Shown: positions 25,197-64,000, counted from the first letter of the stretch. The stretch is 64,000 nucleotides of DNA from a virus (IMGVR_UViG_3300029957_000007:58759-122758), one strand, 5' to 3'. Numbers and translations are program-made. The notes: a model not told the origin generated them from the sequence alone.

Positions 25197-25197
25197 C

Positions 25198-25908: not shown

Positions 25909-25919
25909 AGGAGGATAGC

Positions 25920-27713: not shown

Positions 27714-27720
27714 TTCAACA

Positions 27721-27771
27721 GGTCGTGAAACATGATCCACTCAGGAGTCACCTGGGTGGATCTGCACGGCC
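27721..27771 (+). promoter_or_regulatory. Long intergenic hairpin between sheath and tube genes
   Basis: GATCCACTCAGG/CCTGGGTGGATC (12 bp, one G.U) extended by GGTCGTG/CACGGCC. Confidence 0.6.
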
Positions 27772-27798
27772 CCTAGAACCCACTTTTAGGAGCAAGAC

Positions 27799-28230: not shown

Positions 28231-28252
28231 CTAAAAGCTTGAGGACAAAGAA

Positions 28253-29142: not shown

Positions 29143-29143
29143 T

Positions 29144-30796
29144 ATGGCATCCCCAAATGAAAAGATCGTTCAGGAACTCGGCCTTGTCTTCACGACCGAT
29201 GAACAATCGAAAGAACAGGTGCTGAGATCTCTTGATGAGATCAACAGCAAAGCCAAGTCAGTCAACGACAATATGGCGGCTGGTAGTGAAGGTGCTTCTA
29301 AGCTCTCTGAGACATTGAGGAAAGATCTTGGTGGTGCTCTTGATAAGTTCTCGCCTGCTTTAGGTGAGATCGGCGGCTTGTTGAAAGCAGCTGGGCCAGT
29401 GACTGCACTGGTCACTGGTTTTATCTTGGTAGTCGATAAGATGGCTGACTTGAATAAAGAAGCTGTTGATGTCAATCGCCAATTCTCTTCGATGTACTCA
29501 ACGATCAAAGACATTGCTGATCTTCAGAATCATATGTCCATGATGGGCTATGATAAAGAGGAGACAAACAACATCACTAGCCGTTTGGCTAGGAATGGGG
29601 CAGCTTCGACAGCTGAACAGCTCACAGATGCTACTATCACGACTGGTGCCTTTGCAAAGATGACTGGCATGGAGACATCATCTGTCGCCAATATGATTGC
29701 GATGGCAGTTAAGAGCGGTGCTCTTGATGCCAACAATTTGCAAGGTGGCGTGTTTGGTGAAGGTGGAAAACCTGGTCTATTCCAGAACATGACTAAAGGC
29801 GCTGCAGAAGCTTCAATGTCGATGGAGCAATACTCCAAGTCTTTGTTTGATCTTTGGGGAACCACACGCAACTACAATATCAGTTTTGAAGATACACAAA
29901 AGCTGATGGGTCGTTGGGGTGATTCGCTGAACAAAGGCATTGTGTCGTTAAATGACATTGCCGCTTTGTCGACTGGCAGCAAGTTCAGCGATGGTCAGAA
30001 GATCTTCATGGCTCAACAAATGGGCATTGAAGGATCGCCACTTGAGATGATGACGAAGTTCGAAGCTAGCCTGAGTAAACCTGAATTCCAAGAACGACTT
30101 GGAACGAAGGTCTATGACATGGCTAAGCAAAGAGCTAAGAGCCCAACAGAGATGGTTGAATGGGTTCGAATGATGAATGATACGCTGACTGGTGGTTCAA
30201 TTCCCGGTCTAAACTCATTGGGTGGAGCTCTTTCATTTTTAGAGTCTCATGCATCTGATCAAGATCGTGGCAAGTATTTTGCTGCGTTCCCAGGCGTTGT
30301 TAACAACCAGAATGAAGAACAGCGCGTCATTGCTAGAATGCAAAATGAAAGTTTGGCTAATGATAGGGCAAAGCGTTTGAATAGTCCAGAAGCGATCAAA
30401 GATCAATTGGGCATCGATGTGATGAGCACTTCAGGCGTTTTGTCTCTGGCAAAACGAGCAGTTGGGCTTCTCTACAATGACATTGGTGCTGGAGCTGACC
30501 AAGAAGGAACGATGAGACATGCGATGGGATTTGATTCTCAACGCGGTTTGAAAGCGTTTCAAGGTCTTGATCCACATCAACAAGCTGAAGCATTGAGAGA
30601 AATGTCAAAGTTCACTGGTGCTACTCAATCGAAGCCAATTGAATTGAAACTTGACAATCACCAATCACTTGACATCAACATCAAGATGAATGGTCAGCAA
30701 GTCAGTACACAACGATTGAACAGCAAACCTGGAACCCAATCGTTCACGCTACCAGCTGGGATGGATATGGGTATCACAGTTGAAGGGCATAAGTGA
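29144..30796 (+). CDS. Tape measure protein
   Basis: Helical Ala/Gly/Met-rich 550 aa protein after the chaperones; its short length suggests a short tail. Confidence 0.8.
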   Translation: MASPNEKIVQELGLVFTTDEQSKEQVLRSLDEINSKAKSVNDNMAAGSEGASKLSETLRKDLGGALDKFSPALGEIGGLLKAAGPVTALVTGFILVVDKMADLNKEAVDVNRQFSSMYSTIKDIADLQNHMSMMGYDKEETNNITSRLARNGAASTAEQLTDATITTGAFAKMTGMETSSVANMIAMAVKSGALDANNLQGGVFGEGGKPGLFQNMTKGAAEASMSMEQYSKSLFDLWGTTRNYNISFEDTQKLMGRWGDSLNKGIVSLNDIAALSTGSKFSDGQKIFMAQQMGIEGSPLEMMTKFEASLSKPEFQERLGTKVYDMAKQRAKSPTEMVEWVRMMNDTLTGGSIPGLNSLGGALSFLESHASDQDRGKYFAAFPGVVNNQNEEQRVIARMQNESLANDRAKRLNSPEAIKDQLGIDVMSTSGVLSLAKRAVGLLYNDIGAGADQEGTMRHAMGFDSQRGLKAFQGLDPHQQAEALREMSKFTGATQSKPIELKLDNHQSLDINIKMNGQQVSTQRLNSKPGTQSFTLPAGMDMGITVEGHK

Positions 30797-52925: not shown

Positions 52926-54001
52926 AGATCATGATCGTGACAGGCAGCGGTGGATTGATCGGCGGCGAAGTAGTCGAGCACTTCATCAAGCTCGGTTGGA
53001 TGGTGCATGGCATTGACAACAATAACAGAAAGCGATTCTTCGGAGAAGCTGGTGACACAGCGTGGCGAGTGAATCAGCTTCTTGAGAAGTATCAAGGATC
53101 TTACTTCCACTATGATGCCGACATCAGCATGGCCACTGAGCTGGAAGAGGTATTCACAGTTGTCGATTCGCAAGACAAGATCTCAGCCATCGTTCACTGC
53201 GCTGCTCAACCATCTCATGATCTCGCAGCTCAGATCATGAGAAAGGACTTTGGTACCAATGTTGTTGGAACCTTCAACATGCTTTCTCTAGCCAAGAAGT
53301 ATTGTCCTGAGGCTCCTTTTGTTTTCACGAGCACAAACAAGGTCTACGGCGACAATCCGAACAAACTGAACTACTACGAGACAGAGACACGTTGGTCTCC
53401 ACTTGACAACTACGATCGAAAGATAGCTGAGTTTGGCTTCGATGAGACACTGAGCATTGACAACTGCAAGCACTCGCTCTTTGGAGCTGGGAAAGCAGCA
53501 GCTGATCTCTACGTTCAAGAGTTCGGTAGGTACTTCAACATGCCTACTGCTTGCTTGAGAGGTGGATGTCTCACAGGTCCCAATCACAGTGGTGTTGAGC
53601 TGCATGGATTCCTCAACTACTTGATCAAGTGCAATTTGGAAGGAAAGAAGTACACTGTGTTCGGCTACAAGGGTAAGCAAGTGAGAGACAACATCCATGC
53701 TTACGACGTGGCACGCTTCATTGAGGAGTTCATCGCTGCTCCGAAATGCGCTGAGATCTACAACATCGGAGGTGGGATGTCAAACTCCATCTCGATCTTG
53801 GAGAGCTTCAAGCTCATTGAGCAGATCACTAGTAAGCCAATGGAGTACGAGATCACAGATGCTGTGAGGAGTGGAGATCATCAGTGGTACGTCAGCGATC
53901 TGCACAAGATGCGAGTCCACTATCCGAAGTGGGAGATCACGAAGACGTTGAAGGACATCTTCAACGAGACAGTCGAGACGTGGCATCAACGTACTGCGTA
54001 G
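52922..54001 (+). CDS. NAD-dependent sugar-nucleotide epimerase/dehydratase (CDP-paratose 2-epimerase-like SDR)
   Basis: VTGSGGLIGG, HCAAQPSHD, STNKVYGD, LFGAGKAAAD, KQVRDNIH, YNIGGG. Confidence 0.9.
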   Translation: MKIMIVTGSGGLIGGEVVEHFIKLGWMVHGIDNNNRKRFFGEAGDTAWRVNQLLEKYQGSYFHYDADISMATELEEVFTVVDSQDKISAIVHCAAQPSHDLAAQIMRKDFGTNVVGTFNMLSLAKKYCPEAPFVFTSTNKVYGDNPNKLNYYETETRWSPLDNYDRKIAEFGFDETLSIDNCKHSLFGAGKAAADLYVQEFGRYFNMPTACLRGGCLTGPNHSGVELHGFLNYLIKCNLEGKKYTVFGYKGKQVRDNIHAYDVARFIEEFIAAPKCAEIYNIGGGMSNSISILESFKLIEQITSKPMEYEITDAVRSGDHQWYVSDLHKMRVHYPKWEITKTLKDIFNETVETWHQRTA

Positions 54002-54005
54002 TGCA

Positions 54006-54045
54006 CAGCTGTGCTTGTGGCGGTTAACCGCCACAAGCACAGCTG
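54006..54045. repeat. Perfect 40-bp palindrome
   Basis: CAGCTGTGCTTGTGGCGGTT|AACCGCCACAAGCACAGCTG is self-reverse-complementary. Confidence 0.95.
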
Positions 54046-54077
54046 CTTCGTATGGCGAAAAAAGCCCAACTTTTGGG

Positions 54078-54106
54078 TGTACAAAAAGTTTCCCTATCAG
54101 TATAAT
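54078..54106 (+). promoter_or_regulatory. Sigma70-type promoter of the early-type region
   Basis: TGTACA (4/6 to TTGACA), 17-bp spacer, perfect TATAAT; predicted start near 54113. Confidence 0.75.
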
Positions 54107-54112
54107 AGGTTC

Positions 54113-54625
54113 ACATTAAACCACGGTCTTTGACAAGCGGCTACCAACAAACGCCTCACGGCAAACGATTCGACGAGTTGGCACCTTCAGTAGTTAAGCA
54201 TACCTGCAATCTATACTGCACAGTGAACTCACTCGAAACCTGACTCCATCGATACCTGGTTGAAAACCCAGTGGTAGAGCTAAACAGCTTCCAAACGGCC
54301 CATATGCCAAGCCAAGTAGGATGAGGGAACAACTCACCTCATGATAACACCCAAACGAGTAGCCATATGGCAAAACCGAGGCATCAACCAACCCGGACCA
54401 TATGCGAGGTTAAAGGACCTTCCGGAAGGAAATCCCTGAGATAACTGAACACCAGCTGACCCGATGTGAGATCGGTACTTGCAGACTGGAAGATCGAATG
54501 GATCGAGTAAGTGAATCTCAGAGAACGAGAAAAAACAGTGAGGACCGAAGGAGCGGCTTCGACGACATCGACGCTTCTTCGGTCCCATTCAATGGAGTCG
54601 AGCATTGAGCTCGACTCCATTGATG
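54113..54625 (+). ncRNA. Putative large structured non-coding leader RNA
   Basis: No credible + strand gene; helices ATGAGG/CCTCAT, CTGAGAT/ATCTCAG, CCGAT/ATCGG and two tandem 14-bp stems (54542-54585, 54590-54622). Confidence 0.5.
54125..54136 (+). promoter_or_regulatory. boxA-like antitermination element
   Basis: GGTCTTTGACAA ~12 nt after the predicted start; resembles rrn boxA TGCTCTTTAACA. Confidence 0.45.
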
Positions 54626-54651
54626 CTTTGACTCACTCTCACGGAGCAACA

Positions 54652-54852
54652 ATGTTCAACAAATCATTGAGCACTCTCAGCCGCAAGGTCACCGTCCAAT
54701 CGATCAACAATAACATCGTTGCTGCTGAGATGCGAGATGGTACCAAGATCGAGTTCACCTTCAACGATGATCTGCAGAATCCTCCTTGCATCGGCGATCG
54801 AGTCGTCGTCGAGAAGACAGACAAGTGCAAGTGGATCCTGCCGCTCAAGTAG
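54652..54852 (+). CDS. Small OB-fold-like hypothetical protein (66 aa)
   Basis: ACTCACTC box + GGAG RBS favour ATG 54652 over GTG 54511. Confidence 0.65.
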   Translation: MFNKSLSTLSRKVTVQSINNNIVAAEMRDGTKIEFTFNDDLQNPPCIGDRVVVEKTDKCKWILPLK

Positions 54853-54884
54853 CGCACCACTCACTCATTTAATGGAGCACTGCA

Positions 54885-55334
54885 ATGAAGAAAGTGTCAA
54901 TCACTTCCAAAAACGGAAAGCTTGGTGAAACTATCATCCATACAAAGAAGGATGAATTGAACATCATCATCAACGTGAAGATGAAGGTGATCGCCAGTCA
55001 CTTGATCGGTGCCTTCGAAGGTGGATCGAACTATTGGTACGAGATCAAGAGCTACGTGATGCCGAAGAGGATCACGTTCCGCATCGACAAAGCTCATGTG
55101 TACGAATACGTCGACTTCCCAATGAGCGAAGGTGGTGCTGTGGTGTTGACCAGCACCGAAGAGAAAAAGAGCAAGGAGTACCGTCTAGATCTGCCGTCGA
55201 TCAGACGTGGTATCGCCATCATGGCGAAGAAGTACCCAAAGCACTTTGCTGATCTGATGGTGGAAGACGGCGACGCCACTACCAGCGATGTGCTGCTGCA
55301 GTGCTGCGTTTTTGGTGATGCGATCTACGGCTGA
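54885..55334 (+). CDS. Conserved phage hypothetical protein
   Basis: AFEGGSNYW...DGDATTSDVLLQCCVFGDAIYG motif typical of phage early proteins. Confidence 0.65.
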   Translation: MKKVSITSKNGKLGETIIHTKKDELNIIINVKMKVIASHLIGAFEGGSNYWYEIKSYVMPKRITFRIDKAHVYEYVDFPMSEGGAVVLTSTEEKKSKEYRLDLPSIRRGIAIMAKKYPKHFADLMVEDGDATTSDVLLQCCVFGDAIYG

Positions 55335-55338
55335 AACA

Positions 55339-55433
55339 GCAGCCGAGGGGAACCACACAGGTTGGTCGCTACGAGGCTGCCTGGCTGGACTGATTATCCA
55401 TATGGTCCAGCCAGGCAGTATCAACCTGCAGCC
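55339..55433 (+). promoter_or_regulatory. Structured intergenic element
   Basis: Perfect 14-bp stem 55377-55390/55405-55418; outer CAGGTTG/CAACCTG; GGCTGC has two alternative GCAGCC partners. Confidence 0.6.
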
Positions 55434-55470
55434 ACCTACAAACCAGACGAACTCACTCAGGAGCACAGCC

Positions 55471-55833
55471 GTGGCACTCAACAAGACGATCATCCAGATC
55501 GGCACTATCCGCAAAGCAGTTGAGGATGGCGTTGCCAACATCCAACTGACTTTCGACTGCATGCCGCCTCATGATATGAATCATGAGATGTTGACCATCA
55601 TCAAGAAGCACTTCAGCACTGACAACATGAACGATGGTCTCTACCCGACTGGTGTTGCCATCTTCTACTTTGGTGCTTGGGCTGAGGTGGAAGGCGAGTT
55701 CGAGTCGAAGTACATTCCGCCATTGATGGCTGGGATGCTGTGCAACAACATCCTCGAAGAACTGAAGAAGATCCAGATGGTTGCTGATGTGATCAACAGC
55801 TTTGAGACTGAGCGGAAGATGGTGAAGTCATGA
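55471..55833 (+). CDS. Hypothetical protein
   Basis: Box + GGAG RBS before GTG 55471; the longer track start runs through the hairpin. Confidence 0.65.
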   Translation: MALNKTIIQIGTIRKAVEDGVANIQLTFDCMPPHDMNHEMLTIIKKHFSTDNMNDGLYPTGVAIFYFGAWAEVEGEFESKYIPPLMAGMLCNNILEELKKIQMVADVINSFETERKMVKS

Positions 55834-56042
55834 AGCGAATGCTCATCATCGCTGCTATCCTCAAGGTCTTTTGGGGATCAGCACCAGATCAGAATGGCGT
55901 CTACCTTGGCAGGAAGGAACTGATCGCTGGTGGTAGCGTGAAGATCAACTACTTCGTCGTCAGACTCAAAGACGGCACTGTTGCTTTCATCGAACCGGAG
56001 ATGATCGAAAAGGTGAAAGCTGTGGAGGAACGTCATGGCTAA
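55830..56042 (+). CDS. Small SH3-like hypothetical protein with hydrophobic N-terminus
   Basis: ATGA overlap; FVVRLKDGTVAFIEP. Confidence 0.55.
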   Translation: MKRMLIIAAILKVFWGSAPDQNGVYLGRKELIAGGSVKINYFVVRLKDGTVAFIEPEMIEKVKAVEERHG

Positions 56043-56682
56043 AGCGGTGAAGATGGAGAAGGACAACATCGTTGTCTGCCTCAATGATGCTCACAACGAT
56101 TTGAACAACACCAACGTCCGCTTGACAAATGGCAAGGTATACGTTGTTAAAGGCGTGACGGAAGCCAAGGAAGCTCCTGGAGACGAGACGGTCTTGGTCG
56201 TGTGTGATGACGGTGAAGAGCGATGGGTGTATGCTTCTCGCTTCAAGTTGAAGATCAACTTTCGAAAGTTGATGGCCAACAACATCGATGGCTCTTCTGA
56301 TGATGTGAACTTCTGCATCAAGTTCGCTGAAGAGCATCAGCTCAAAGGCGACATGGAAGATGATGAGATCATGGAGGGCCTCATCGGCATATTGGCGATG
56401 AACAGCAATCGCAACAAGTCACGTGAGATCATCCGCTTCAATGAGATGATTGTTGAAGGGATCCAAGGTCTCAGATTCATGGGACACTGGCCGAATCTCG
56501 GAAGAGCAGCGAAGCATGCTCTGTCAGAGGAGGTCAAGTGTCTTGAAGCCGAGCCTGATAAGCCGTTCATCAAACTGGTCGCCGGTCACAAGGTTCGACT
56601 CGCCGTGTTGGAAGCAGGAAGCAACGAGTTCAAGAACATCTTCAATGAGGAGTTTCTCCTCAAGCATGGTTTCACAGAATAG
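56035..56682 (+). CDS. Hypothetical protein, N-terminal SH3-like domain
   Basis: GAGG RBS; LTNGKVYVV...VVCDDGEERWVYASRF. Confidence 0.6.
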   Translation: MAKAVKMEKDNIVVCLNDAHNDLNNTNVRLTNGKVYVVKGVTEAKEAPGDETVLVVCDDGEERWVYASRFKLKINFRKLMANNIDGSSDDVNFCIKFAEEHQLKGDMEDDEIMEGLIGILAMNSNRNKSREIIRFNEMIVEGIQGLRFMGHWPNLGRAAKHALSEEVKCLEAEPDKPFIKLVAGHKVRLAVLEAGSNEFKNIFNEEFLLKHGFTE

Positions 56683-56691
56683 GAGATCCAC

Positions 56692-56964
56692 ATGGCTAAG
56701 AGCTATCTGTTCCACGATCTCAAAGCTGTCAAGACCTTTGTGAAGAAGAGCAAGGGCAAGACGCTAAGGGTATGGTTCATCAAAGATGATGAGACCATTC
56801 GTAAGATGAAGTGCAACGTCGATCTCGACTACAAGCCGAAGCCTAGAGCTGATGGTCAACCGAACAAGAAGTTGCCGGAGACTTCTGTCTTCATCTTCGA
56901 TCAGGAGAAGGAACAGTACCGCAGCTTTCGTGCAGATCGCGTCATTTACATGGCTCTGCTGTAG
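56692..56964 (+). CDS. WYL_2/DUF2693-like SH3-fold protein
   Basis: FIKDDETIRKMKC...FIFDQEKEQYRSFR motif. Confidence 0.65.
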   Translation: MAKSYLFHDLKAVKTFVKKSKGKTLRVWFIKDDETIRKMKCNVDLDYKPKPRADGQPNKKLPETSVFIFDQEKEQYRSFRADRVIYMALL

Positions 56965-56993
56965 ACACAACACTCACTCATTAGGATGGCAGC

Positions 56994-57521
56994 ATGGTTC
57001 AGATGATACAAGCAAGATCACACAGTGGTCGTCCTTTTGAGACCATGAACGATCGTAAGGTTCCACTCGCTAAAGCAATACAGTCAGTGATCGAGTTCGA
57101 GCTTGGCTTTGGTGGGAAGCTCATCAAAGTCGATGAGAAGGAAATGAGCGTCGTGACGGAGACCCTGCTCTTCGCTTGCAGAGACACGACGAAGGTTGTC
57201 TGTGAGAAGATGGATGAGTTCAAGCTTCTGTTGGAAGCGTGCTATGCTCATCATCAAGTCTTCGGCATCAAAGACGACAACGATCTGAGCAAGGTCGCCG
57301 AGCAGCTGATCGACATCACCGGCGGCAATGCGCTGATGCTCACCACGATGGCCGGCCCTTTCATTGGTGGAACGCTCACCAGGAAGAAGGGACTCAACAA
57401 GCTCATCGCATCGTACTCAATGGCTGCTGCTGGAATGAGCGAGCAAGACATTTTGACGATGTTGGAGATGGCAACAGACAATGAGATCAAGGAATGGATC
57501 GAAGCAGCTTGCGCTGCATAA
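56994..57521 (+). CDS. Hypothetical protein
   Basis: Box + AGGA RBS; 175 aa. Confidence 0.65.
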   Translation: MVQMIQARSHSGRPFETMNDRKVPLAKAIQSVIEFELGFGGKLIKVDEKEMSVVTETLLFACRDTTKVVCEKMDEFKLLLEACYAHHQVFGIKDDNDLSKVAEQLIDITGGNALMLTTMAGPFIGGTLTRKKGLNKLIASYSMAAAGMSEQDILTMLEMATDNEIKEWIEAACAA

Positions 57522-57543
57522 CACTCACTCACGGAGGTAGACA

Positions 57544-57861
57544 GTGGAAATCACAGCCACTGAAGAGCAGATTAAGAAGATCGCTGCTGCTGCAGCTCAA
57601 GCGTCGTCACCGGTAGGAATGGGCCTGCTTCATTTCAATCCGGACTTTAAGTTCCAACCAGAACAATTCAACTTCGTTCATCTCGACGGTAAAAAGTTCT
57701 TGGACTTGGATTACGTTCAAGGCCGTTGTGTGAAAATCACCATCAAGCAGGTCGATGGTGACCGATGGAACATCAGTGGTGACCAGCCACGTGCTGACTA
57801 TCAGACGTGGTGCACTACCTACAAGACGAACGCTGACTTGGTGGCATCCGTCATCAAGTAG
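57544..57861 (+). CDS. Conserved phage hypothetical protein
   Basis: Box + GGAGG RBS; SSPVGMGLLHF...LDYVQGRCVK...YQTWCTTY. Confidence 0.65.
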   Translation: MEITATEEQIKKIAAAAAQASSPVGMGLLHFNPDFKFQPEQFNFVHLDGKKFLDLDYVQGRCVKITIKQVDGDRWNISGDQPRADYQTWCTTYKTNADLVASVIK

Positions 57862-57891
57862 TTGTACCATCACCTCAATTCGGAGGCAGTC

Positions 57892-58176
57892 GTGGCAGAA
57901 GACAAGTTCGAACCGATCGAGAATGACGTCATCGTTCAGAAGAGCGCTGATCAGAAGCAGTGGGAAGCTCTCCACTACAGCAAGGGCACCAAGCCGAAAT
58001 TAGTCTACCGTGACACGAATCGTTCTTTGGTTCGTCGTAAGGGCAGTGAGTTCGCTGCTCAACACGGTACGAAGTGCTACATGAGGTTGCCGAGTGGCAG
58101 TATCATCCTCGAAGACAAAGACAACAAGCATCTCGTCGCTGCTGTTTCCGATGGTGGTGTCGAACAGGAGGCTTGA
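57892..58176 (+). CDS. Hypothetical protein
   Basis: GGAGG RBS favours GTG 57892. Confidence 0.55.
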   Translation: MAEDKFEPIENDVIVQKSADQKQWEALHYSKGTKPKLVYRDTNRSLVRRKGSEFAAQHGTKCYMRLPSGSIILEDKDNKHLVAAVSDGGVEQEA

Positions 58177-58325
58177 TGTTCTCTAAGAAATGGGAACGTC
58201 GCATCAACAACGCGTTCTACATCGTCATTGGTGTTCTGCTGCTGATGAACACCATCGCACAAACAGTCATCTACTTCAAGTACAAAGGAGAAAAACATAG
58301 TGAATATCACTCAATGCAGCGGTAG
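58176..58325 (+). CDS. Small single-TM protein
   Basis: TGATG overlap; AFYIVIGVLLLMNTIAQTVIYF helix. Confidence 0.55.
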   Translation: MFSKKWERRINNAFYIVIGVLLLMNTIAQTVIYFKYKGEKHSEYHSMQR

Positions 58326-58680
58326 GATCAGCGGCGACAAAGTCTTCTTCACTCATCTGCTCCTGACCGGCGATGCGATGAGGAATGAAGGCTGGGCTGC
58401 TCAACAGCAATCGTTGGATGGCTACAAGCCGAAGTTCCATGGCTTCTTCGACTTCGGAGTCGTTGAGAAGAAGCCTTGGAGAGAGATCCAATGGTGGTGC
58501 TTCAAGGACAAGCAAGACGAAGAGGCATTGGCTCCTTTCCGAAAGATCGAGGAAGAGCGAGCTGCGAAGAAGGCCGAGGATCTGCGAAAGCAGTTGATCG
58601 ACGAGGAGAAACACAAGGAGCAAGCTTGGGCTGAAGGGAAGAAGCGAGTTGCCAAGCTGAAGGAACCTGCTCACGTCTAG
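58300..58680 (+). CDS. Hypothetical protein with C-terminal coiled coil
   Basis: AAGGAG RBS before GTG. Confidence 0.55.
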   Translation: MNITQCSGRISGDKVFFTHLLLTGDAMRNEGWAAQQQSLDGYKPKFHGFFDFGVVEKKPWREIQWWCFKDKQDEEALAPFRKIEEERAAKKAEDLRKQLIDEEKHKEQAWAEGKKRVAKLKEPAHV

Positions 58681-58686
58681 AAAAAT

Positions 58687-58702
58687 GGGAGCTTCGGCTC
58701 CC
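58687..58702 (+). terminator. UUCG tetraloop hairpin directly before tRNA-Thr
   Basis: GGGAGC-TTCG-GCTCCC; no U-tract, so may be a processing/stability element. Confidence 0.5.
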
Positions 58703-58705
58703 TAT

Positions 58706-58780
58706 GCCCAGATAGTATAACGGTTATTACAGTGGATTTGTAATCCTCTAATCCGAGTTCGACTCTCGGTCTGGGCTCCA
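58706..58780 (+). tRNA. trnT: tRNA-Thr(UGU)
   Basis: Acceptor GCCCAGA/TCTGGGC, anticodon loop TT-TGT-AA, TTCGA T-loop, encoded CCA. Confidence 0.9.
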
Positions 58781-58797
58781 ACTTTCTAGGTGATGTA

Positions 58798-59184
58798 ATG
58801 AGATCCACACACAAAAAAGGAATTATTGCAGAATTGAAAGTTCAAGAATATTGCATCAGACATGGATATGAAGTGTATACGCCTTTGTCTCCATTTTCAA
58901 GCGTAGACTTGATAGTTTTACGAAAATGTAAGCTTGAAAGGCTACAAGTAAAATATGTCAATCATGAAGAGAGAACAGCAGTCAAGTTCTTTTCTAATGG
59001 CAAAAAATACTCACATGAAATTTTTGATTGGATAGCCACATATAATCGAGCTACCGATCAATGCTATTTTGTTCATATATCTGAGATTCCAATTGGTGCC
59101 GCAGGGATAACATTGAGAATGACTAAAACAAAAAATGGACAAAAGAAACATGTGAGAAAGGCTAAGAACTACTTAGACTGGTAA
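58798..59184 (+). mobile_element. PD-(D/E)XK homing endonuclease of the group I intron-associated type, free-standing in the tRNA cluster
   Basis: KGIIAELKV...GYEVYTP...VDLIV...LQVKY motif; AT-rich; adjacent to tRNA. Confidence 0.75.
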
Positions 59185-59205
59185 TCAATCACTAGAGGTC
59201 CCATC

Positions 59206-59580
59206 ATGAAAGCAAAGGACATGGCGAAGATCTTGTCGGAGGCTGGTGATGATCCTGACAAGCGGAAGGAAGCGATCAAGACAGTGTTCTTCCAGCATAA
59301 CAAAGACCTTCATGAACTCGTGAAGGTTAGGAATCCTCAGAGCATTGAGGCGATGGTGTCTATCGTTAAAGAGATCGACAACAAATGGCAAGCGATGTGT
59401 CGTATGGCTCCAGGATTTTGCAATCCTATGGGCTATCGTGAGGTGTTGAAGGCTGATCACAACCTTCTTTATGAAGTGGCATTCAACGATTACATCAAGA
59501 AGCACCAAGAACTTGAGAGCGCAATGAATGCACTAAGGATCTCCGCACTTCGTTCGATCTTTGGAGGACGCGGTGATTGA
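59206..59580 (+). CDS. Hypothetical protein
   Basis: GAGG RBS; 124 aa helical. Confidence 0.6.
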   Translation: MKAKDMAKILSEAGDDPDKRKEAIKTVFFQHNKDLHELVKVRNPQSIEAMVSIVKEIDNKWQAMCRMAPGFCNPMGYREVLKADHNLLYEVAFNDYIKKHQELESAMNALRISALRSIFGGRGD

Positions 59581-59821
59581 TGACATTGACAGTAAATGGA
59601 GAAGAACAGCAGACAATATCATAAGCGTTCGTCGATTGTATAGATTCGCAAAGCAAAGTGGTAAGCTTACAAAAGCTGAATTGAAAGATCTAGAACTTTG
59701 CGCTAACAATCACATGAATCTTTTGAAAGAACTTTTTGAGAGGATCGTAAAAAAACTTGGTGATGAGTGGGAAACTTGGGTGGATCCGCATCCAGCCAGA
59801 GATAAATTTAAGAAATACTAA
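59573..59821 (+). CDS. Hypothetical protein
   Basis: GGAGG RBS 5 nt before GTG 59573. Confidence 0.5.
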   Translation: MIDDIDSKWRRTADNIISVRRLYRFAKQSGKLTKAELKDLELCANNHMNLLKELFERIVKKLGDEWETWVDPHPARDKFKKY

Positions 59822-59827
59822 CAACTT

Positions 59828-59904
59828 GACCACGTAGCTCAGTTGGATAGAGCAACAGATTTCTAATCTGTTGGCCACCGGTTCGAGTCCGGTCGTGGTC
59901 ACCA
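59828..59904 (+). tRNA. trnR: tRNA-Arg(UCU)
   Basis: GACCACG/CGTGGTC acceptor, ACAGA-TTTCTAA-TCTGT anticodon arm, TTCGAGT loop, CCA. Confidence 0.95.
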
Positions 59905-59907
59905 AAT

Positions 59908-59983
59908 GGTTCCATCGTCCAGCGGTCTAGGACACTGCCCTTTCACGGCAGGAACACGGGTTCAAATCCCGTTTGGACCTCCA
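59908..59983 (+). tRNA. trnE: tRNA-Glu(UUC)
   Basis: CTGCC-CTTTCAC-GGCAG anticodon arm, TTCAAAT loop, CCA; one C.U mismatch in the acceptor stem. Confidence 0.9.
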
Positions 59984-60002
59984 CTTATTAAAGGAGACGT
60001 GC

Positions 60003-60143
60003 GTGGGAACTTTAAAGATCAAGAAACAAGTACACAAAAGCAGAGGATCAGTTAAGAGGATCCATGGTAAAGTCACTGGTCATGTGAAGCTGTTGACTAG
60101 TGAAGATGCTAAGCAGAAGAAAGAATTGAATATCACTTTCTAA
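60003..60143 (+). CDS. Small basic protein (46 aa), absent from ORF track
   Basis: AAGGAG RBS, GTG start, TAATG-coupled to the next gene. Confidence 0.5.
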   Translation: MGTLKIKKQVHKSRGSVKRIHGKVTGHVKLLTSEDAKQKKELNITF

Positions 60144-60535
60144 TGGAGAAAAACGTGGCTCATATCACTGAGGCAGTGCAGTTCATCAGAGACAAGCACA
60201 ACATCAAGCGAGGCGTGATGGTTGCTATCTTGCTTCCCGGAACGAATCAAGTTCGCTTTGGTTGGAGCTTGTGCAGTCGTCAAAAAGGTAGGGCTGACGT
60301 CTTCGACCCGGAGTTCGGCAAGCAGCTTGCCATCGGCCGTACCAAACGAGACAGTGAAGTGCCTAGGTCGATGATCAAAGACATGCGCAATTTCTATCAT
60401 CGCTGGTTGAAGTACTTCAAGGACAAAGAGATCGCTACGACGATCGTTGATGAGCACACAGCACACCACAACTTCGATGGTGAGCGTGACTATCCCACTG
60501 GCCTTCATATGAGGCTCATTCAAGGCGCTGAGTAA
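60143..60535 (+). CDS. Conserved phage protein with GWSLC...D.F...G..LA..R motif
   Basis: Motif resembles the Phage_gp49_66-like pattern G.S.C..P..FD..IG..IA (from memory). Confidence 0.55.
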   Translation: MEKNVAHITEAVQFIRDKHNIKRGVMVAILLPGTNQVRFGWSLCSRQKGRADVFDPEFGKQLAIGRTKRDSEVPRSMIKDMRNFYHRWLKYFKDKEIATTIVDEHTAHHNFDGERDYPTGLHMRLIQGAE

Positions 60536-60544
60536 TCAGCGTTC

Positions 60545-60617
60545 GGTTCGGTAGCTCAGTTGGTAGAGCAATTGGCTTTTAACCAATGGGTCGTGAGTTC
60601 GAACCTCACCCGAGCCA
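60545..60617 (+). tRNA. trnK: tRNA-Lys(UUU), CCA not encoded
   Basis: ATTGG-CTTTTAA-CCAAT anticodon arm, GCTCAGTTGGTAGAGC D-arm, TTCGAAC loop; followed by AAA. Confidence 0.93.
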
Positions 60618-60632
60618 AAATCTTTAGAGCTT

Positions 60633-60723
60633 CCTGTGAACTGATTGAGTGTAGTAGCTAACCCATGAAAATATCGAATTGTCGATGTCATCTCCATGGG
60701 TAGAAACTCAGTCAGATTGCAGG
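60633..60723 (+). ncRNA. Unassigned rod-like structured RNA between tRNA-Lys and tRNA-Gln
   Basis: CCTG/CAGG, CTGATTGAGT/ACTCAGTCAG, ACCCATG/CATGGGT and ATCGA/TCGAT nested helices. Confidence 0.5.
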
Positions 60724-60724
60724 A

Positions 60725-60750
60725 CACCAGTCAGTGCAAACTGACTGGTG
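60725..60750 (+). other. Perfect hairpin just before tRNA-Gln
   Basis: CACCAGTCAG-TGCAAA-CTGACTGGTG. Confidence 0.7.
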
Positions 60751-60755
60751 CACAT

Positions 60756-60829
60756 TGGGAGGTCGTTCAATGGTAGGACACTACACTTTGACTGTAGTAA
60801 TGTAGGTTCGATTCCTACTCTCCCAGCCA
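60756..60829 (+). tRNA. trnQ: tRNA-Gln(UUG)
   Basis: TGGGAGG/TCTCCCA acceptor (U1-A72), CTACA-CTTTGAC-TGTAG anticodon arm, CCA. Confidence 0.95.
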
Positions 60830-60856
60830 ACTATCAACTCACTCATTGAGGTCAAC

Positions 60857-61351
60857 ATGGAAATCCTAAAAGAAGAAAAACCGAAGTTCGAGTTCAAGAC
60901 TCCATTTATGACTGGAGAAGGGCCGTGTCATTTGACATTCTTTGAAGATCATGTGAAGGTTTACGTCGACAGTCGAGATGCGACGGTCAAGATTGAGTAC
61001 GAACAAATTGCCCAGACCGCGATCAACTTCATCAAAAAACCATGGAAGCCTACCATCAAAGATCAGAATGAACCGAGAAAGAAAAGGCAGTTCACTGCTG
61101 AAGATCTCAAGTTCCACACATTCCTGACAATCGCCAAAGTATGTGATGTCTCTTATGAGACAATCAGGCGATTCATCAATGAAAATAAGAAAGACTACCC
61201 GATGCTCAGCACATCAAATCCTAAATCTTTCTCAATGGAGATCGGGAGGAAGATCATTGAGGATTATAGCATCCATCGAAGCTTGGTAAAGGAAGCCAAC
61301 GTTGAACGGATCAGCAAAGCCAGAGCCAAGAAAAAGAAACTCACTAACTGA
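60857..61351 (+). CDS. Hypothetical protein, possible C-terminal helix-turn-helix
   Basis: Box + GAGG RBS; TIAKVCDVSYETIRRFI resembles an HTH. Confidence 0.55.
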   Translation: MEILKEEKPKFEFKTPFMTGEGPCHLTFFEDHVKVYVDSRDATVKIEYEQIAQTAINFIKKPWKPTIKDQNEPRKKRQFTAEDLKFHTFLTIAKVCDVSYETIRRFINENKKDYPMLSTSNPKSFSMEIGRKIIEDYSIHRSLVKEANVERISKARAKKKKLTN

Positions 61352-61359
61352 GGTGTGAG

Positions 61360-63168
61360 ATGGATATCCAACTTCATAGATTCGTCTGCAGAGCTCTTCC
61401 GAAGGAGATCTGTGAAAGCATAGGTATCAATCAAGACGACATGCGTTTCAGAGAAAGCACAGCTGTTGATCTTGATGATCTCACAATCAAAGTGATCGAA
61501 AAGTTGGCCGCTGCTTTGAAGCCGCTTGTGTACGAAAAAGGGTTGAAGGTCAAAGAAGCAAATCAGCCCTACAAGGACGTAACGACGTGGATCAGGATCT
61601 TGAAGAAAGGCACTGAGAAAGAGATCCTCATCAAAGATGCTAAGACATTCACGTCTATCCTTAAGGCGGCTCTGTCAAAGATGCAAGGTCATCGCATCTT
61701 TGTGAAGTCGAGATCAGATGATGAATGGCTGAGCTACTATGTTGGTAGTGTCGAATATGAGCCGATCAAGCATCATCGTGGTGGTGGTGTCACACCTGCT
61801 CACACGGTCATGAAGCTCTACCACTATGTTCTTGGTAAGCTGAGAGAGACAAGCATAAACATTTGGGAGAGTTCTTTCTATGGCAAAAATGTTTATGATG
61901 GTCTTCTAGCTAACAACATAGTTGTTGAAGATGAAGATCTGCGGAATGAGTACCTTGAAGAAAAGAAGTTGTTCATGGAAACATTTGAGAAGATCGGTCG
62001 CCAATACTTGGCAGAGGGTTCGGCGACTGACGATGTAGATGGCAATGATGATACCAACGATGAAGAAGACAGCTGGTGGAGAGGGTACAATGAGCACACT
62101 ATCTTTCTTTCTAAGGATGGTGAACCAGCTCATGTTGTCATTGATGTCTTCAATGAGAAGGACAGCGTCAAAACGAAATCGAAGTCTGATGATGAAGACG
62201 ACGATATCGATTGGTCATTTTGGGGTGACATGAACGAGAAAGGTGAAGCGAATGATGGTCCAGAATATGAAGATGAAGAAGAACGTGATGATGATGTGAA
62301 ACGTCGTAAGAAGAAGAACGCCGCTGATCGAACTGAAGTTGTCAAGATCGGTGAAGTGCCGATTCACCCTTACGTGGTTTGTTTTGATCTTCGTCGTCAG
62401 ATGCGATTGAAGATCCATGTCAATCAACTCACTAAGTATTCTTACGACACAACGCTTGGTGAAAGCTTAGAGCTGCCAAAGAATCAGAAAGATCTTATCG
62501 ATGCTCTTCTATCAGCGAAGAGCGGTTTCAAAGATGTGATCAAAGGCAAAGGTGGTGGAGCTATCATCTTAGGTGTTGGTGGCCCTGGTCTTGGCAAGAC
62601 TTTGACAGCTGAAGTCTACGCTGAAGTTGCAAAGCGTCCTCTCTACTCAGTTCAATGCTCACAATTAGGAACTGAGCCAGAAGAGCTTGAAAAGAACCTT
62701 CTGAAGACGTTTGCTAGAGCAATACGATGGAGAGCAATTCTGCTTCTTGATGAAGCTGATGTATACATTCACAAACGTGGCAATGATCTCAAGCAGAATG
62801 CTGTCGTTGGTGTATTCCTCAGAACGTTGGAGTACTATCGCGGCGTCATGTTCATGACCTCTAATCGTAAGGCATTGATCGATGATGCGATCGCTTCACG
62901 ATGCGTGGCGCTCATTGAATACAAGATCCCTGACAGGGATGGTCAACTTCGTCTTTGGGAGAAAATCTCTAAGAAAGCGGAGATTGAGTTAAGTGCTAAA
63001 GATATCGCCAAGATAGTTGATAAGTATCCATCACTCTCCGGTCGAGATGTGAAGAACCTTCTCAAACTAGCTTTGATGGTGTCTAGCTCTAAAGACGAGA
63101 AGATCACTCTCGCTACTATAGATGCAGTGAAACAGTTCAAACCGACTGCTGATCTGAAGGAGGACTGA
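61360..63168 (+). CDS. AAA+ ATPase with long N-terminal region
   Basis: GGPGLGKTLTAE Walker A, ILLLDEADV Walker B, FLRTLEYY.G..F.TSNR, IDDAIASR arginine finger, LSGRDVKN lid. Confidence 0.9.
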   Translation: MDIQLHRFVCRALPKEICESIGINQDDMRFRESTAVDLDDLTIKVIEKLAAALKPLVYEKGLKVKEANQPYKDVTTWIRILKKGTEKEILIKDAKTFTSILKAALSKMQGHRIFVKSRSDDEWLSYYVGSVEYEPIKHHRGGGVTPAHTVMKLYHYVLGKLRETSINIWESSFYGKNVYDGLLANNIVVEDEDLRNEYLEEKKLFMETFEKIGRQYLAEGSATDDVDGNDDTNDEEDSWWRGYNEHTIFLSKDGEPAHVVIDVFNEKDSVKTKSKSDDEDDDIDWSFWGDMNEKGEANDGPEYEDEEERDDDVKRRKKKNAADRTEVVKIGEVPIHPYVVCFDLRRQMRLKIHVNQLTKYSYDTTLGESLELPKNQKDLIDALLSAKSGFKDVIKGKGGGAIILGVGGPGLGKTLTAEVYAEVAKRPLYSVQCSQLGTEPEELEKNLLKTFARAIRWRAILLLDEADVYIHKRGNDLKQNAVVGVFLRTLEYYRGVMFMTSNRKALIDDAIASRCVALIEYKIPDRDGQLRLWEKISKKAEIELSAKDIAKIVDKYPSLSGRDVKNLLKLALMVSSSKDEKITLATIDAVKQFKPTADLKED

Positions 63169-63254
63169 TGGGAGTTCCTGAAGGTTTCTTCCTCGTAGGG
63201 TTCGTGGTTGGATTGCTCGTTGGAATTGGGATCTGCATTGTATGGAGGCCATGA
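63168..63254 (+). CDS. 28-aa membrane peptide, absent from ORF track
   Basis: AGGAGG RBS, TGATG overlap; MGVPEGFFLVGFVVGLLVGIGICIVWRP*. Confidence 0.55.
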   Translation: MGVPEGFFLVGFVVGLLVGIGICIVWRP

Positions 63255-63472
63255 TGAAGTTGTTCTTCGAGAAAACAGAGTACAAAGGCGAAGATGAAGT
63301 CAGGGTTTGTTTGGTCGCTGACAATGGCTGTGGTGTTGCTGAAGGTTATGGCACCACTAAGCAAGAGGCGAAGGACAACATGATCAAACAGATGAATGAT
63401 GAACTCAACACTGAAATAAGGAGAGTGACGCGAAGGATTCATACGGCTCTTAAATTGACGGTGCCGAAATGA
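63251..63472 (+). CDS. Small hypothetical protein
   Basis: GGAGG RBS; AEGYGTTKQEAKDN resembles HicB/dsRBD-like small folds (weak). Confidence 0.55.
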   Translation: MMKLFFEKTEYKGEDEVRVCLVADNGCGVAEGYGTTKQEAKDNMIKQMNDELNTEIRRVTRRIHTALKLTVPK

Positions 63473-63660
63473 TGGGCGGTAGACCAGCAGGGCGTTCTGA
63501 TCAAGAGGTTAGAGCCATCGCAGCAATGAGACGACAAGCGAAGGCATTGAAGAAAGCTGGTTTAATGCCTGACAAGGATGCTTTGAAGCTCATCAACGAA
63601 TTGGCAAAAGAAAAGCTGTTCTATCGGAAAGACGAAAGAGAAATGGCGTTGTTCGGATAA
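63469..63660 (+). CDS. Small hypothetical protein
   Basis: ATGA overlap; fills the gap between coupled genes. Confidence 0.5.
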   Translation: MMGGRPAGRSDQEVRAIAAMRRQAKALKKAGLMPDKDALKLINELAKEKLFYRKDEREMALFG

Positions 63661-63678
63661 CTCACTCAAGGAGATCAG

Positions 63679-63846
63679 ATGGCTGCATTCACTCTGCAAG
63701 TCGATATTAGCATCGACATCGATGCCAAGAACAAGACGGAAGCTAAGAAGAAATTGGCTGCCTTCAATAAGTTCTTGAAAGCTCAAGCATTTGAGGGTTC
63801 TCGCATTGAGACCTTCTCTCCTCAAGTCTTCAAAGAGGAGAACTGA
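63679..63846 (+). CDS. Small hypothetical protein (55 aa), absent from ORF track
   Basis: ACTCACTCA box + AAGGAG; MAAFTLQVDISIDIDAKNK...KEEN*. Confidence 0.6.
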   Translation: MAAFTLQVDISIDIDAKNKTEAKKKLAAFNKFLKAQAFEGSRIETFSPQVFKEEN

Positions 63847-64000
63847 TGAGACCACTTTGCATCTATCACAGCAGCTGCACTGATGGTTTTGGAAGCGCGT
63901 TGATCGTCCACAATCACTTCAAAGGTGATGTGGACATTTGGCGTGGTCGGTACCAAAGTGAGAAGCTGCCAAGCACCAAGGATCGCGATGTCTACATCGT
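63846..64000 (+). CDS. Second DHH-family phosphoesterase, 3'-truncated by the window
   Basis: TGATG overlap; MRPLCIYHSSCTDGFGSALIV...RDVYIV matches the DHH N-terminal motif I. Confidence 0.7.
   Translation, partial: MRPLCIYHSSCTDGFGSALIVHNHFKGDVDIWRGRYQSEKLPSTKDRDVYI

What the first reader, a model, noticed from the sequence alone, without database searches (positions are those of the whole stretch)
54631..63679. ACTCACTCA box at a fixed distance upstream of early-gene start codons
Seen: six exact 9-mers and two one-mismatch copies start 21, 26, 20, 22, 21, 20, 21 and 19 nt before the starts at 54652, 54885, 55471, 56994, 57544, 60857, 61360 and 63679, always just 5' of the SD. About 0.25 exact copies are expected per strand in 64 kb at uniform composition. 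Genes coupled by ATGA/TGATG overlaps lack it; degenerate forms precede 57892 and 59206. Inference: a translational enhancer or operator for an RNA-binding protein, or a target for a trans-acting RNA. Caveat: related ACTCAAAC lies upstream of two late genes (7676, 13223), so it may be a general enhancer.
Basis: partly seen in the sequence, partly recalled or inferred. Interest (0 to 1): 0.78.

Follow-up and report, generated by a model that had tools for sequence, protein, structure and literature searches.

The report
G-free ACUCACUCA leader before early genes
An uncultured 122-kb phage puts the same guanine-free 9-base word directly in front of the ribosome-binding site of eleven early genes, most likely as an open landing strip for ribosomes on the mRNA; many unrelated phages do the same, so it is a clean example of a recurring trick, not a new kind of element.

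Summary
ACTCACTCA occurs 9 times exactly on the coding strand of the whole 122,758-bp phage record (0.4-1.4 expected). Six copies are in the window and three lie past the contig join. Two further copies have one mismatch. All 11 sit 0-6 nt 5' of a GGAG/GAGG site and 19-26 nt before a start codon, within one ~12.8-kb early block.

Nothing upstream of the box is conserved. No known ribozyme or RNA family matches there, and no T7-type RNA polymerase, RegA, RegB or MazF homologue was detected.

The same word, or longer (ACTC)n runs, precedes the ribosome-binding site in unrelated phages. It follows twister ribozymes (11 and 13 copies in two contigs), hairpins or promoters, and occurs in Mycobacterium phage Bxz1. 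Across IMG/VR, (ACTC)3A lies before GGAG in 41 stretches and after it in 6.

My best reading (about 0.5) is a single-stranded, G-free mRNA leader that helps 30S subunits load at independent start sites. It resembles C/A-rich enhancers and the start-associated sequences of mycobacteriophages. A role as operator for an early-specific regulator is not excluded.

The "degenerate copies" and the late-gene ACTCAAAC are at chance level. This scan has noted similar reused CA-rich leaders on other phage DNA. No close relative's DNA could be fetched.

The parts
54631..54654 (+). Box copy 1 (8/9, last base T), 3-nt spacer, GGAG, ATG at 54652 (66-aa ORF). First gene after the long non-coding leader. A 15-bp hairpin ends 9 nt upstream of the box.
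54859..54887 (+). Box copy 2 (exact), 6-nt spacer, GGAG, ATG at 54885 (149 aa, phrog_2355, function unknown). The box starts 6 nt after the upstream stop codon.
55451..55473 (+). Box copy 3 (exact), abutting GGAG, GTG at 55471 (120 aa). An alternative ATG at 55288 would place the box inside a coding region; this was not resolved.
56972..56996 (+). Box copy 4 (exact), 3-nt spacer, GGATGG, ATG at 56994 (175 aa).
57523..57546 (+). Box copy 5 (exact), 1-nt spacer, GGAGG, GTG at 57544 (105 aa). The box starts 1 nt after the upstream TAA.
60837..60859 (+). Box copy 6 (exact), 2-nt spacer, GAGG, ATG at 60857 (164 aa). The box starts 7 nt after the 3' end of tRNA-Gln (60756-60829).
61339..61362 (+). 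Box copy 7 (8/9, base 8 A), 2-nt spacer, GAGG, ATG at 61360 (602-aa AAA+ ATPase). The box lies inside the last codons of the upstream gene.
63660..63681 (+). Box copy 8 (exact), 1-nt spacer, GGAG, ATG at 63679 (55 aa). The first A of the box is the last base of the upstream TAA. Three more exact copies follow beyond the window end, at record 1376, 2602 and 3691.
54078..54106 (+). Sigma-70-like promoter (TGTACA, 17 nt, TATAAT; 10 of 12), the probable start of the early transcript that carries the boxes. It follows two hairpins at 54003-54077.
54107..54630 (+). About 520-nt leader without a credible + strand ORF, between the promoter and the first box. No Rfam match.
57865..57894 (+). Box-less but G-free 17-nt leader, GGAGG, GTG at 57892. 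A possible functional analogue by composition only.
59182..59208 (+). Box-less but G-free 13-nt leader, GAGG, ATG at 59206. A possible functional analogue by composition only.

Best explanation
ACUCACUCA, that is (ACUC)2A, is a guanine-free, single-stranded piece of mRNA leader placed directly 5' of the Shine-Dalgarno site. It marks the early-operon genes whose translation starts independently, rather than by coupling to the gene before.

It most likely works as a ribosome-loading (standby or enhancer) platform. The segment cannot pair with itself and lies where the 30S platform and protein S1 meet the mRNA, so 30S subunits can dock next to the SD.

Shown here: the position, strand, copy number, restriction to the early block, lack of flanking conservation, and recurrence of the same arrangement in unrelated phages.

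Inferred: that it raises translation, and that the ribosome or S1 reads it.
For: Position and statistics:
- 11 copies (9 exact), all on the + strand, in one ~12.8-kb block; 0.4-1.4 exact copies expected.
- Every copy is followed after 0-6 nt by GGAG/GAGG-type SD and a start codon. This holds even where the intergenic space is not limiting (after the 650-nt leader, after tRNA-Gln, in the 136-nt gap).
- Genes that overlap the previous stop lack the box.
- There is no information content at -30..-1 (0.9 bit or less per column), so the box is not one half of a two-part promoter. The conserved, correctly spaced SDs downstream mean the transcript must start upstream of them.

The same word is leader RNA elsewhere:
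- In a 38.8-kb phage contig (G001), 11 Type-P5 twister ribozymes (48-56 bits, gathering score 37.6) are each followed after 3-6 nt by this word or a one-mismatch variant (9 of 11 exact), often extended by further G-free bases, then AAGGAG and ATG.
- A relative of that contig has 13 such units.
- G000 and G001 share no protein at E < 1e-3.

Across IMG/VR:
- (ACTC)3A within 8 nt before GGAG: 41 stretches, 45 matches, 28 similarity groups, GC 39-70%. Thirty of the 45 are followed by a start and an open frame, and at least 6 contigs have 2-3 hits.
- The mirror order, GGAG before the repeat: 6 stretches.

A cultured phage:
- Mycobacterium phage Bxz1 has CACTCA within 8 nt before GGAG 17 times on the forward strand and once on the reverse, against 3 for the mirror order. 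In several cases this follows a repeated promoter-like module.

Composition and structure in G000:
- Early-block genes have longer G-free runs before the SD than the rest (mean 10.9 against 6.1 nt; runs of 12 nt or more in 11/23 against 17/136).
- The box is predicted more unpaired (mean about 0.67 over the 11 sites) than the same position of other genes (0.49).

Literature:
- C/A-rich elements and ACA motifs just upstream of the SD are experimentally shown translational enhancers (PMC3879156).
- Unstructured, especially CA-rich, 5' tails stimulate translation through ribosome standby, with S1 as suspect (PMC5934652).
- (ACUC)n oligonucleotides are used as generic single-stranded RNA substrates (PMC3928423).
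Against: No expression data exist.

Replacing the box in silico by 150 random 9-mers per site does not lower the predicted accessibility of the SD and start (mean percentile 0.52). The box is therefore not explained as an 'SD unmasker'. If it helps, it does so as a docking site.

A generic need for open RNA does not explain why this phage keeps one exact 9-mer with almost no intermediate forms, or why only the early block has it. Other uncoupled genes manage without it.

The box contains no ACA, the motif shown to matter in enterobacteria.

The unrelated phages were found by searching for this very word, so part of the resemblance is selected by the search. The mirror-order control addresses this only for the longer repeat.

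Distant relatives (AAA ATPase 35-48% identical, 60 loci) do not carry the box.
Confidence: 0.5

Rival explanations
1. The box is an operator on early mRNAs for a trans-acting regulator made later in infection. A phage RNA-binding repressor or a sequence-specific endoribonuclease would bind or cut at ACUCACUCA next to the SD and shut off the early genes as a set. The logic is that of T4 RegA or RegB.
For: The 9-mer is kept exact, with a bimodal match distribution. It is restricted to the early block, while later uncoupled genes lack it. Most early proteins are ORFans that could hide a reader. In T4, RegB cuts GGAG sites of early mRNAs and needs extra sequence context (abstract of PMC1702504).
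Against: No match to RegA, RegB or PemK/MazF profiles. The same word before the SD in phages that share no protein with this one, with variable repeat number elsewhere, points to a common host reader rather than private regulators. In G001 a ribozyme already cuts just upstream, which makes a second cutting site redundant.
Confidence: 0.2
2. The boxes are boundary or linker repeats of a gene-cassette region. Short identical words at gene junctions arise and are kept because recombination between them adds, removes or swaps early genes. Any effect on expression is secondary.
For: The box sits exactly at gene junctions, often touching the upstream stop codon, in a block of small ORFan genes. In Cluster C mycobacteriophage LRRHood a 1.35-kb gene insertion is flanked by 29-bp direct repeats (PMC3029335). 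Earlier notes of this scan report reused CA-rich leaders acting as deletion points (not checked here).
Against: Nine bases are very short for homologous exchange. The flanks are not conserved, so there is no sign of recent copying of larger units. This reading does not explain the constant 0-6 nt link to the SD, the G-free composition, or the 41:6 orientation bias across phages.
Confidence: 0.12
3. The box acts on DNA. It is either a stoperator-like site where a phage DNA-binding protein blocks elongating RNA polymerase, or a short single-element promoter for a phage-directed polymerase (the word equals positions -10 to -4 of the T7 promoter plus two bases).
For: The site is asymmetric, in one orientation, and lies in short intergenic gaps near stop codons, like L5 stoperators (as described in PMC3203893). 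The phage encodes a DNA-binding protein (phrog_624) and its own sigma factor near the block. Nine bases carry enough information to be unique in 122 kb.
Against: No T7-like RNA polymerase match in G000 or G001, although that search had no positive control. Nothing is conserved at -17..-11. With -10-element geometry the transcript would start inside or after the SD and lose it. In G001 each copy follows a ribozyme, which only makes sense within a longer co-transcript. In Bxz1 and L136 the word lies downstream of a promoter-like -10. Stoperators occur in both early and late operons of temperate phages; here the box is confined to the early block, and no integrase or repressor was noticed in the proteins scanned.
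Confidence: 0.08
4. The box base-pairs with an RNA: either a phage antisense or leader RNA, or a segment of 16S rRNA (for example the conserved GGGUGAGU stretch of the 5' domain, recalled from memory), as an extra mRNA-ribosome contact.
For: Eight consecutive pairs (one G-U) can be drawn on paper with the conserved 16S stretch (own knowledge, not tested). Recurrence across hosts would fit a universal rRNA partner.
Against: The only exact complement on the + strand (record 58163-58171) lies inside a lipoprotein-like ORF, and its local fold is unremarkable (z = -0.9). The 16S stretch is far from the mRNA exit site (own knowledge). The host and its rRNA are unknown.
Confidence: 0.05

Closest known systems
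Start-Associated Sequences (SAS) of Cluster K mycobacteriophages (Pope et al. 2011, PMC3203893; function still untested in 2025, PMC12699233)
   Same: Both are short asymmetric words repeated 11-19 times per genome. Both occur in one orientation only, are confined to the non-structural part, lie immediately before start codons of otherwise unrelated genes, and sometimes overlap the upstream stop codon.
   Different: SAS is 13 bp, GC-rich, contains the SD core itself and ends 3-7 bp from the start. The box here is 9 nt, G-free, separate from and 5' of the SD, and starts 19-26 nt from the start. There is no ESAS-like inverted repeat upstream. The phage is unrelated and the consensus is different.
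C/A-rich translational enhancers and ACA motifs upstream of the SD (GcvB target sites in gltI, dppA, yifK; PMC3879156) and CA-rich ribosome standby tails (PMC5934652)
   Same: G-poor, single-stranded element placed just 5' of the SD. The position relative to the SD is flexible by a few bases. It is thought to help 30S binding.
   Different: Those elements are host-gene leaders, individually different and built around ACA or CA repeats. Here one exact U-containing word without ACA is reused 11 times in a phage early block. The effect on translation is not measured.
Ribozyme-punctuated phage early operons (Type-P5 twister arrays, Rfam RF02684)
   Same: The box occupies the same junction position in an operon of small early genes. 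In G001 and L231 the box word is physically the leader between each twister and the SD.
   Different: The window has no match to any ribozyme family and no conserved structure before the boxes. Only the leader part of such a unit is present.
Stoperators of L5-type (Cluster A) mycobacteriophages
   Same: Asymmetric sites in one orientation within short intergenic gaps, close to stop codons (as contrasted with SAS in PMC3203893).
   Different: Stoperators are 13-bp DNA sites for a prophage repressor and are spread over early and late operons. Here the sites are 9 nt, tied to the SD and confined to the early block, and the same word sits in mature mRNA leaders of other phages.

Membership tests
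Start-Associated Sequences (Cluster K mycobacteriophages) | Short asymmetric repeat, about 11-19 copies per genome, essentially one orientation | tested here: met
   11 copies on +, 1 unrelated copy on -
Start-Associated Sequences (Cluster K mycobacteriophages) | Confined to the non-structural part of the genome | tested here: met
   All copies lie between window 54631 and record 3691. None is in the head, tail or replication blocks.
Start-Associated Sequences (Cluster K mycobacteriophages) | Repeat occupies the RBS position, contains the AGGAG core and ends 3-7 bp from the start codon | tested here: not met
   The box is G-free and lies 5' of a separate SD. The box end is 10-17 nt from the start.
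Start-Associated Sequences (Cluster K mycobacteriophages) | Consensus of 13 bp (GGGATAGGAGCCC, up to 2 mismatches) | tested here: not met
   Different word (definition)
Start-Associated Sequences (Cluster K mycobacteriophages) | Conserved at orthologous genes across related phages | not testable with these tools
IMG/VR relatives at 35-48% identity lack the box.
C/A-rich / ACA translational enhancers | G-poor C/A-rich single-stranded element at or just upstream of the SD | tested here: met
   The box has no G (4 C, 3 A, 2 U), lies 0-6 nt from the SD, and is predicted mostly unpaired.
C/A-rich / ACA translational enhancers | ACA trinucleotide(s) as the active module | tested here: not met
   There is no ACA in ACUCACUCA. 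Some copies in other phages continue into CACA.
C/A-rich / ACA translational enhancers | Removal lowers translation initiation | not testable with these tools
   Needs reporter or toeprint assays. In silico the box does not change SD accessibility.
Self-cleaving ribozyme junctions (twister and others) | Match to a ribozyme covariance model, or a conserved fold, at the junction | tested here: not met
   Only tRNAs match in window 53500-64000 at E up to 1. No conserved columns or consistent hairpin precede the boxes.
T7-type single-subunit RNA polymerase promoter | Phage-encoded single-subunit RNA polymerase | tested here: inconclusive
   PF00940 finds nothing in G000 or G001, but the control genomes cannot ring for this family. 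None of the large proteins scanned is a polymerase of this kind.
T7-type single-subunit RNA polymerase promoter | About 17-23 bp conserved, including the -17 to -11 recognition region | tested here: not met
   Only 9 columns carry information.
L5-type stoperators | Sites spread through early and late operons of a temperate phage with a cognate repressor | tested here: not met
   Sites occur only in the early block. No integrase or repressor appeared among the proteins scanned, though not every gene was scanned.
RegB/RegA-type early-mRNA control | Homologue of the nuclease or repressor in the genome | tested here: not met
   PF10715 and PF01818: no match at E up to 1.

The most novel reading that the evidence does not exclude
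(ACUC)n before the Shine-Dalgarno site is a specific, previously undescribed ribosome-recruitment signal, read sequence-specifically by a conserved part of the bacterial 30S subunit. Unrelated phages from Actinobacteria to low-GC hosts would have converged on it. In this phage the invariant 9-mer would also serve as the tag of an early regulon that can be switched off as a set.
Probability: 0.2. Interest if true: 0.75.

Novelty: new variant of a known kind. Interest (0 to 1): 0.5.

Why it matters
Phage early genes must be translated at once and in competition with host messages, and they are constantly swapped between genomes. A short, portable, structure-proof leader that works in front of any gene would explain how.

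The data give three things:
- an unusually exact example of such a leader in this phage;
- a measurable rule across phages: (ACUC)n lies before the SD seven times more often than after it, in about 28 sequence groups;
- a cultured system, Bxz1 in Mycobacterium smegmatis, where the rule can be tested.

Why CA-rich or G-free leaders stimulate translation so strongly is still called puzzling in the literature (PMC5934652). A natural, repeated, minimal element is a good handle on that question and a possible part for gene-expression design.

Tried and rejected
1. Close relatives, to test conservation.
- Single-protein scans of IMG/VR with the ATPase and with DnaE found nothing.
- GenBank phages reach only about 31% identity on DnaE.
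- Sixty ATPase-based IMG/VR loci (35-48% identity) lack the box and have their own signals.

2. Promoter reading. Rejected for lack of flanking information and for geometry. No T7-type polymerase was found.

3. RegA, RegB and MazF/PemK homologues. None.

4. Known RNA families at the boxes. None. Also none at hairpin-plus-leader units of eight other contigs.

5. Anti-box RNA. The single complement lies in a coding region with an ordinary fold.

6. 'SD unmasking'. Random replacement of the box does not change predicted SD accessibility.

7. Degenerate boxes and late-gene ACTCA(AAC). At chance level.

8. General G-free bias before the SD. In 60 unrelated-by-design loci the bias is only 1.8-fold (6.4% against 3.5%). 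ACTCA is 2.8-fold enriched there, but this is borderline after multiple testing and the instances are scattered.

9. Box as part of the twister fold in G001. The upstream flanks are not complementary except in 2 of 11 units.

Only the longer-repeat scan and its mirror control are quantitative.

11. Host identity was not determined.

Full report
WHAT IS THERE

The window is bases 58,759-122,758 of a 122,758-bp IMG/VR virus record. Nearly all genes run on the + strand. The first 296 nt of the record repeat its last 296 nt at 99.3% identity. The genome is therefore terminally redundant or circularly assembled, and the block at the window's end continues at the record's start.

The phage is novel. 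Its DnaE-type polymerase is about 31% identical to the best GenBank phage hits. Recognisable genes are:
- terminase, portal, a head protease region and SbcCD;
- primase, DnaB-type helicase and thymidylate synthase;
- a 602-aa AAA+ ATPase;
- five tRNAs;
- a sigma factor at record 6452-7069.

THE OBSERVATION

The whole record has 9 exact ACTCACTCA on the + strand and one on the - strand, against 0.4-1.4 expected per strand. Six exact copies are in the window and three lie at record 1376, 2602 and 3691. One-mismatch copies stand at window 54631 and 61339.

Every one of the 11 is followed after 0-6 nt by GGAG, GAGG or GGATGG, and then by ATG or GTG.

The distribution is bimodal. Perfect or 8/9 matches in the right place are about 11-fold over the random rate. 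Matches of 7/9 occur at exactly the random rate. The 'degenerate copies' before 57892 and 59206, and the ACTCAAAC before late genes, are therefore not supported as sequence matches. The first two leaders are, however, G-free for 17 and 13 nt.

A k-mer survey of all upstream regions puts this word first in the genome, at 21.5 +/- 1.8 nt from the start.

ANATOMY OF THE BLOCK

After the epimerase-like gene (stop at 54001) come two hairpins, a sigma-70-like promoter (54078-54106, 10 of 12 consensus positions) and about 520 nt without a credible ORF.

From the first box (54631) to the last (record 3691) there are about 29 + strand genes, mostly ORFans. Boxes stand at genes separated from the previous stop by 21 nt or more. 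This includes the first gene, the gene after tRNA-Gln, and a gene after a possible 136-nt gap. In two cases (61360, record 2622) the box lies inside the end of the upstream gene. Genes that overlap the previous stop (ATGA-type junctions) have none.

Where space is free, the box still hugs the SD. No column from -30 to -1 before the box carries more than 0.9 bit. Only the first copy has a strong hairpin before it. No Rfam family other than tRNA matches the region.

DNA OR RNA?

Several points argue against a promoter:
- only nine informative positions, with nothing at a -35 or -17..-11 distance;
- well-spaced SDs directly downstream, which a transcript starting 6-8 nt after a -10-like element would lose;
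- no T7-type polymerase match, although that search had no positive control.

The phage sigma factor is encoded downstream of the block. Such factors normally need two promoter elements.

The strongest argument comes from other phages. It also brought in a 38.8-kb complete contig, G001 (GC 58%), with no DNA or protein similarity to this phage. There, 11 Type-P5 twister ribozymes (RF02684, 48-56 bits against a gathering score of 37.6) stand before 11 small genes. Each is followed after 3-6 nt by the same word or a one-mismatch variant of it (9 of 11 exact), often extended by further G-free bases, then AAGGAG and ATG.

Whatever the exact scissile bond, the word lies 3' of the whole ribozyme. It is therefore part of the mature mRNA leader. 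A promoter or roadblock at that spot would make no sense in that phage.

HOW GENERAL?

A complete scan for (ACTC)3A within 8 nt before GGAG found 41 stretches and 45 matches. Thirty of the 45 are followed by a start codon and an open frame. The stretches fall into 28 sequence-similarity groups with GC 39-70%. At least six contigs have two or three hits. The mirror arrangement, GGAG before the repeat, has the same composition and so the same chance rate. It found 6 stretches.

The upstream partner varies:
- twisters (L231, 13 units);
- a pair of GC hairpins (six related GC-rich contigs);
- a terminator-like hairpin or a -10-like element (L212, L136);
- in one case 12 tandem ACTC units.

No known ribozyme matches the hairpin types.

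One hit is 100% identical to Mycobacterium phage Bxz1. In Bxz1, CACTCA lies within 8 nt before GGAG 17 times on the forward strand and once on the reverse, against three for the mirror order. Several early genes (gp33, 37, 38, 39, 46, 49, 60) carry a repeated promoter-like module followed by a CA-rich leader that contains this word.

Earlier notes of this scan describe several other phages with private, reused G-free CA-rich leaders before early genes. I did not re-test those. They agree with the picture and show the scan has met this class before on other DNA.

MECHANISM

The simplest common denominator is a G-free, non-self-pairing stretch of RNA next to the SD. Supporting points:
- (ACUC)n is what biochemists order when they want unstructured RNA.
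- C/A-rich elements and ACA motifs just 5' of the SD raise translation up to 10-100-fold in Salmonella.
- CA-rich single-stranded tails act through ribosome standby, with S1 as the suspected reader.
- In this genome the box is predicted to be more unpaired than the equivalent position of other genes (about 0.67 against 0.49).
- Early-block leaders are G-free over longer runs than the rest.

A direct in-silico test failed to show that the box protects the SD. Random 9-mers in its place give the same predicted SD and start accessibility. If the box helps, it does so as a docking platform, not as an insulator.

Two features stay unexplained by a generic 'open RNA' model. These are the exactness of the word in this phage and its restriction to the early block. 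They keep alive the idea of a dedicated reader that could switch the early set off. I found no RegA, RegB or MazF homologue, and the only genomic complement of the box is an ordinary coding sequence. Most early proteins are of unknown function, so a novel reader is not excluded.

A further non-exclusive role as recombination linker for gene cassettes is suggested by the junction position and by the LRRHood example. Nine bases are short for that.

COMPARISON WITH KNOWN SYSTEMS

The nearest described class is the Start-Associated Sequences of Cluster K mycobacteriophages. Copy number, strand rule, non-structural location, closeness to starts and the unknown reader are all the same. This box is not a member, because it does not contain the SD, lies further from the start, and has another consensus.

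Functionally it resembles C/A-rich enhancers, but it lacks ACA.

It occupies the junction position that twister arrays fill in other phages, and in two contigs it is literally the leader behind each twister. The window itself has no ribozyme.

VERDICT

The operator reading is a live rival at about 0.2. DNA-level and antisense readings are unlikely.

It is a new, very exact variant of a known kind: a reused G-free ribosome-loading leader, or start-associated sequence. The directional (ACUC)n-SD rule across unrelated phages, and its presence in cultured Bxz1, are the most useful new points.

LIMITS
- No expression data.
- Host unknown.
- Gene calls are from my own simple ORF and SD heuristic.
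- The start of the 55471 gene is unresolved.

Noticed in passing
window 63705-64000 and record 1-296: The first 296 nt of the 122,758-bp record repeat its last 296 nt with 2 mismatches (99.3%). The record is probably a complete, terminally redundant or circular genome of about 122.46 kb, although it is classed 'linear, 76% complete'. The gene starting at window 63846 continues as record 142-978 (DHH phosphoesterase).
   Followed up: partly
window 54003-54651: A long perfect hairpin (54003-54046) and a second hairpin are followed by a sigma-70-like promoter (54078-54106) and about 520 nt of non-coding leader ending in a 15-bp hairpin just before the first box. No Rfam match.
   Followed up: partly
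record 6452-7069 (outside the window; locus L073): Phage-encoded sigma factor (Sigma70_r2 at 41 bits; phrog_351) just downstream of the box block. Its promoters were not looked for.
   Followed up: no
L201 5118-10574 (G001 = IMGVR_UViG_3300030329_004873, 24118-29580): Array of 11 Type-P5 twister ribozymes, one before each small gene, with compensatory changes in the variable stem. A relative (L231) has 13. Each is followed by the ACTCACTCA-type leader.
   Followed up: partly
L239 (Mycobacterium phage Bxz1, NC_004687 8037-21525): A repeated promoter-like module of about 45 nt (ending in a TATACT-like hexamer) stands before gp33, 37, 38, 39, 46, 49 and 60. Each is followed by a CA-rich leader with CACTCA and AAGGAG. 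I found no description of it in the papers searched.
   Followed up: partly
L228, L236, L206, L214, L086, L153 (GC 65-69% contigs): Repeated junction unit: a GC-rich hairpin, then a second conserved hairpin (stem cctgca..tgcagg), then an (ACTC)n/CACA leader and GGAGA. No Rfam ribozyme matched in the two of these contigs that were searched (L086, L153). It could be an uncatalogued processing or protective element.
   Followed up: partly
L044, L043 (relatives by ATPase), e.g. L044 7533-11515: An SD-less relative carries AAATCCAAA 0-6 nt before at least seven ATG starts. This is a different start-associated word, suggesting a host that does not use SD pairing.
   Followed up: no
L041 (relative by ATPase): An extended RBS word, GGAGACCGAC directly before ATG, is reused five times at an invariant distance. 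This is SAS-like in the strict sense because the SD is included.
   Followed up: no
L038 (relative by ATPase): The 14-bp palindrome TCACGTTGACGTGA occurs 11 times on both strands in 21 kb, mostly intergenic. It is a likely operator for a dimeric DNA-binding protein.
   Followed up: no
L061 7502-7620 and L068: Five tandem copies of a roughly 22-nt unit containing GAAACTAGGGACC, iteron-like.
   Followed up: no
L222 about 3550-3640 (- strand): Twelve tandem ACTC units directly before GGAGG and an ATG. This is a microsatellite-length version of the leader whose copy number could vary.
   Followed up: no
record 58018-58413 (just before the window): A lipoprotein-like ORF (signal peptide with Cys, LysM-like C-terminal part) lies upstream of the head genes. 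It happens to contain the only + strand complement of the box.
   Followed up: partly
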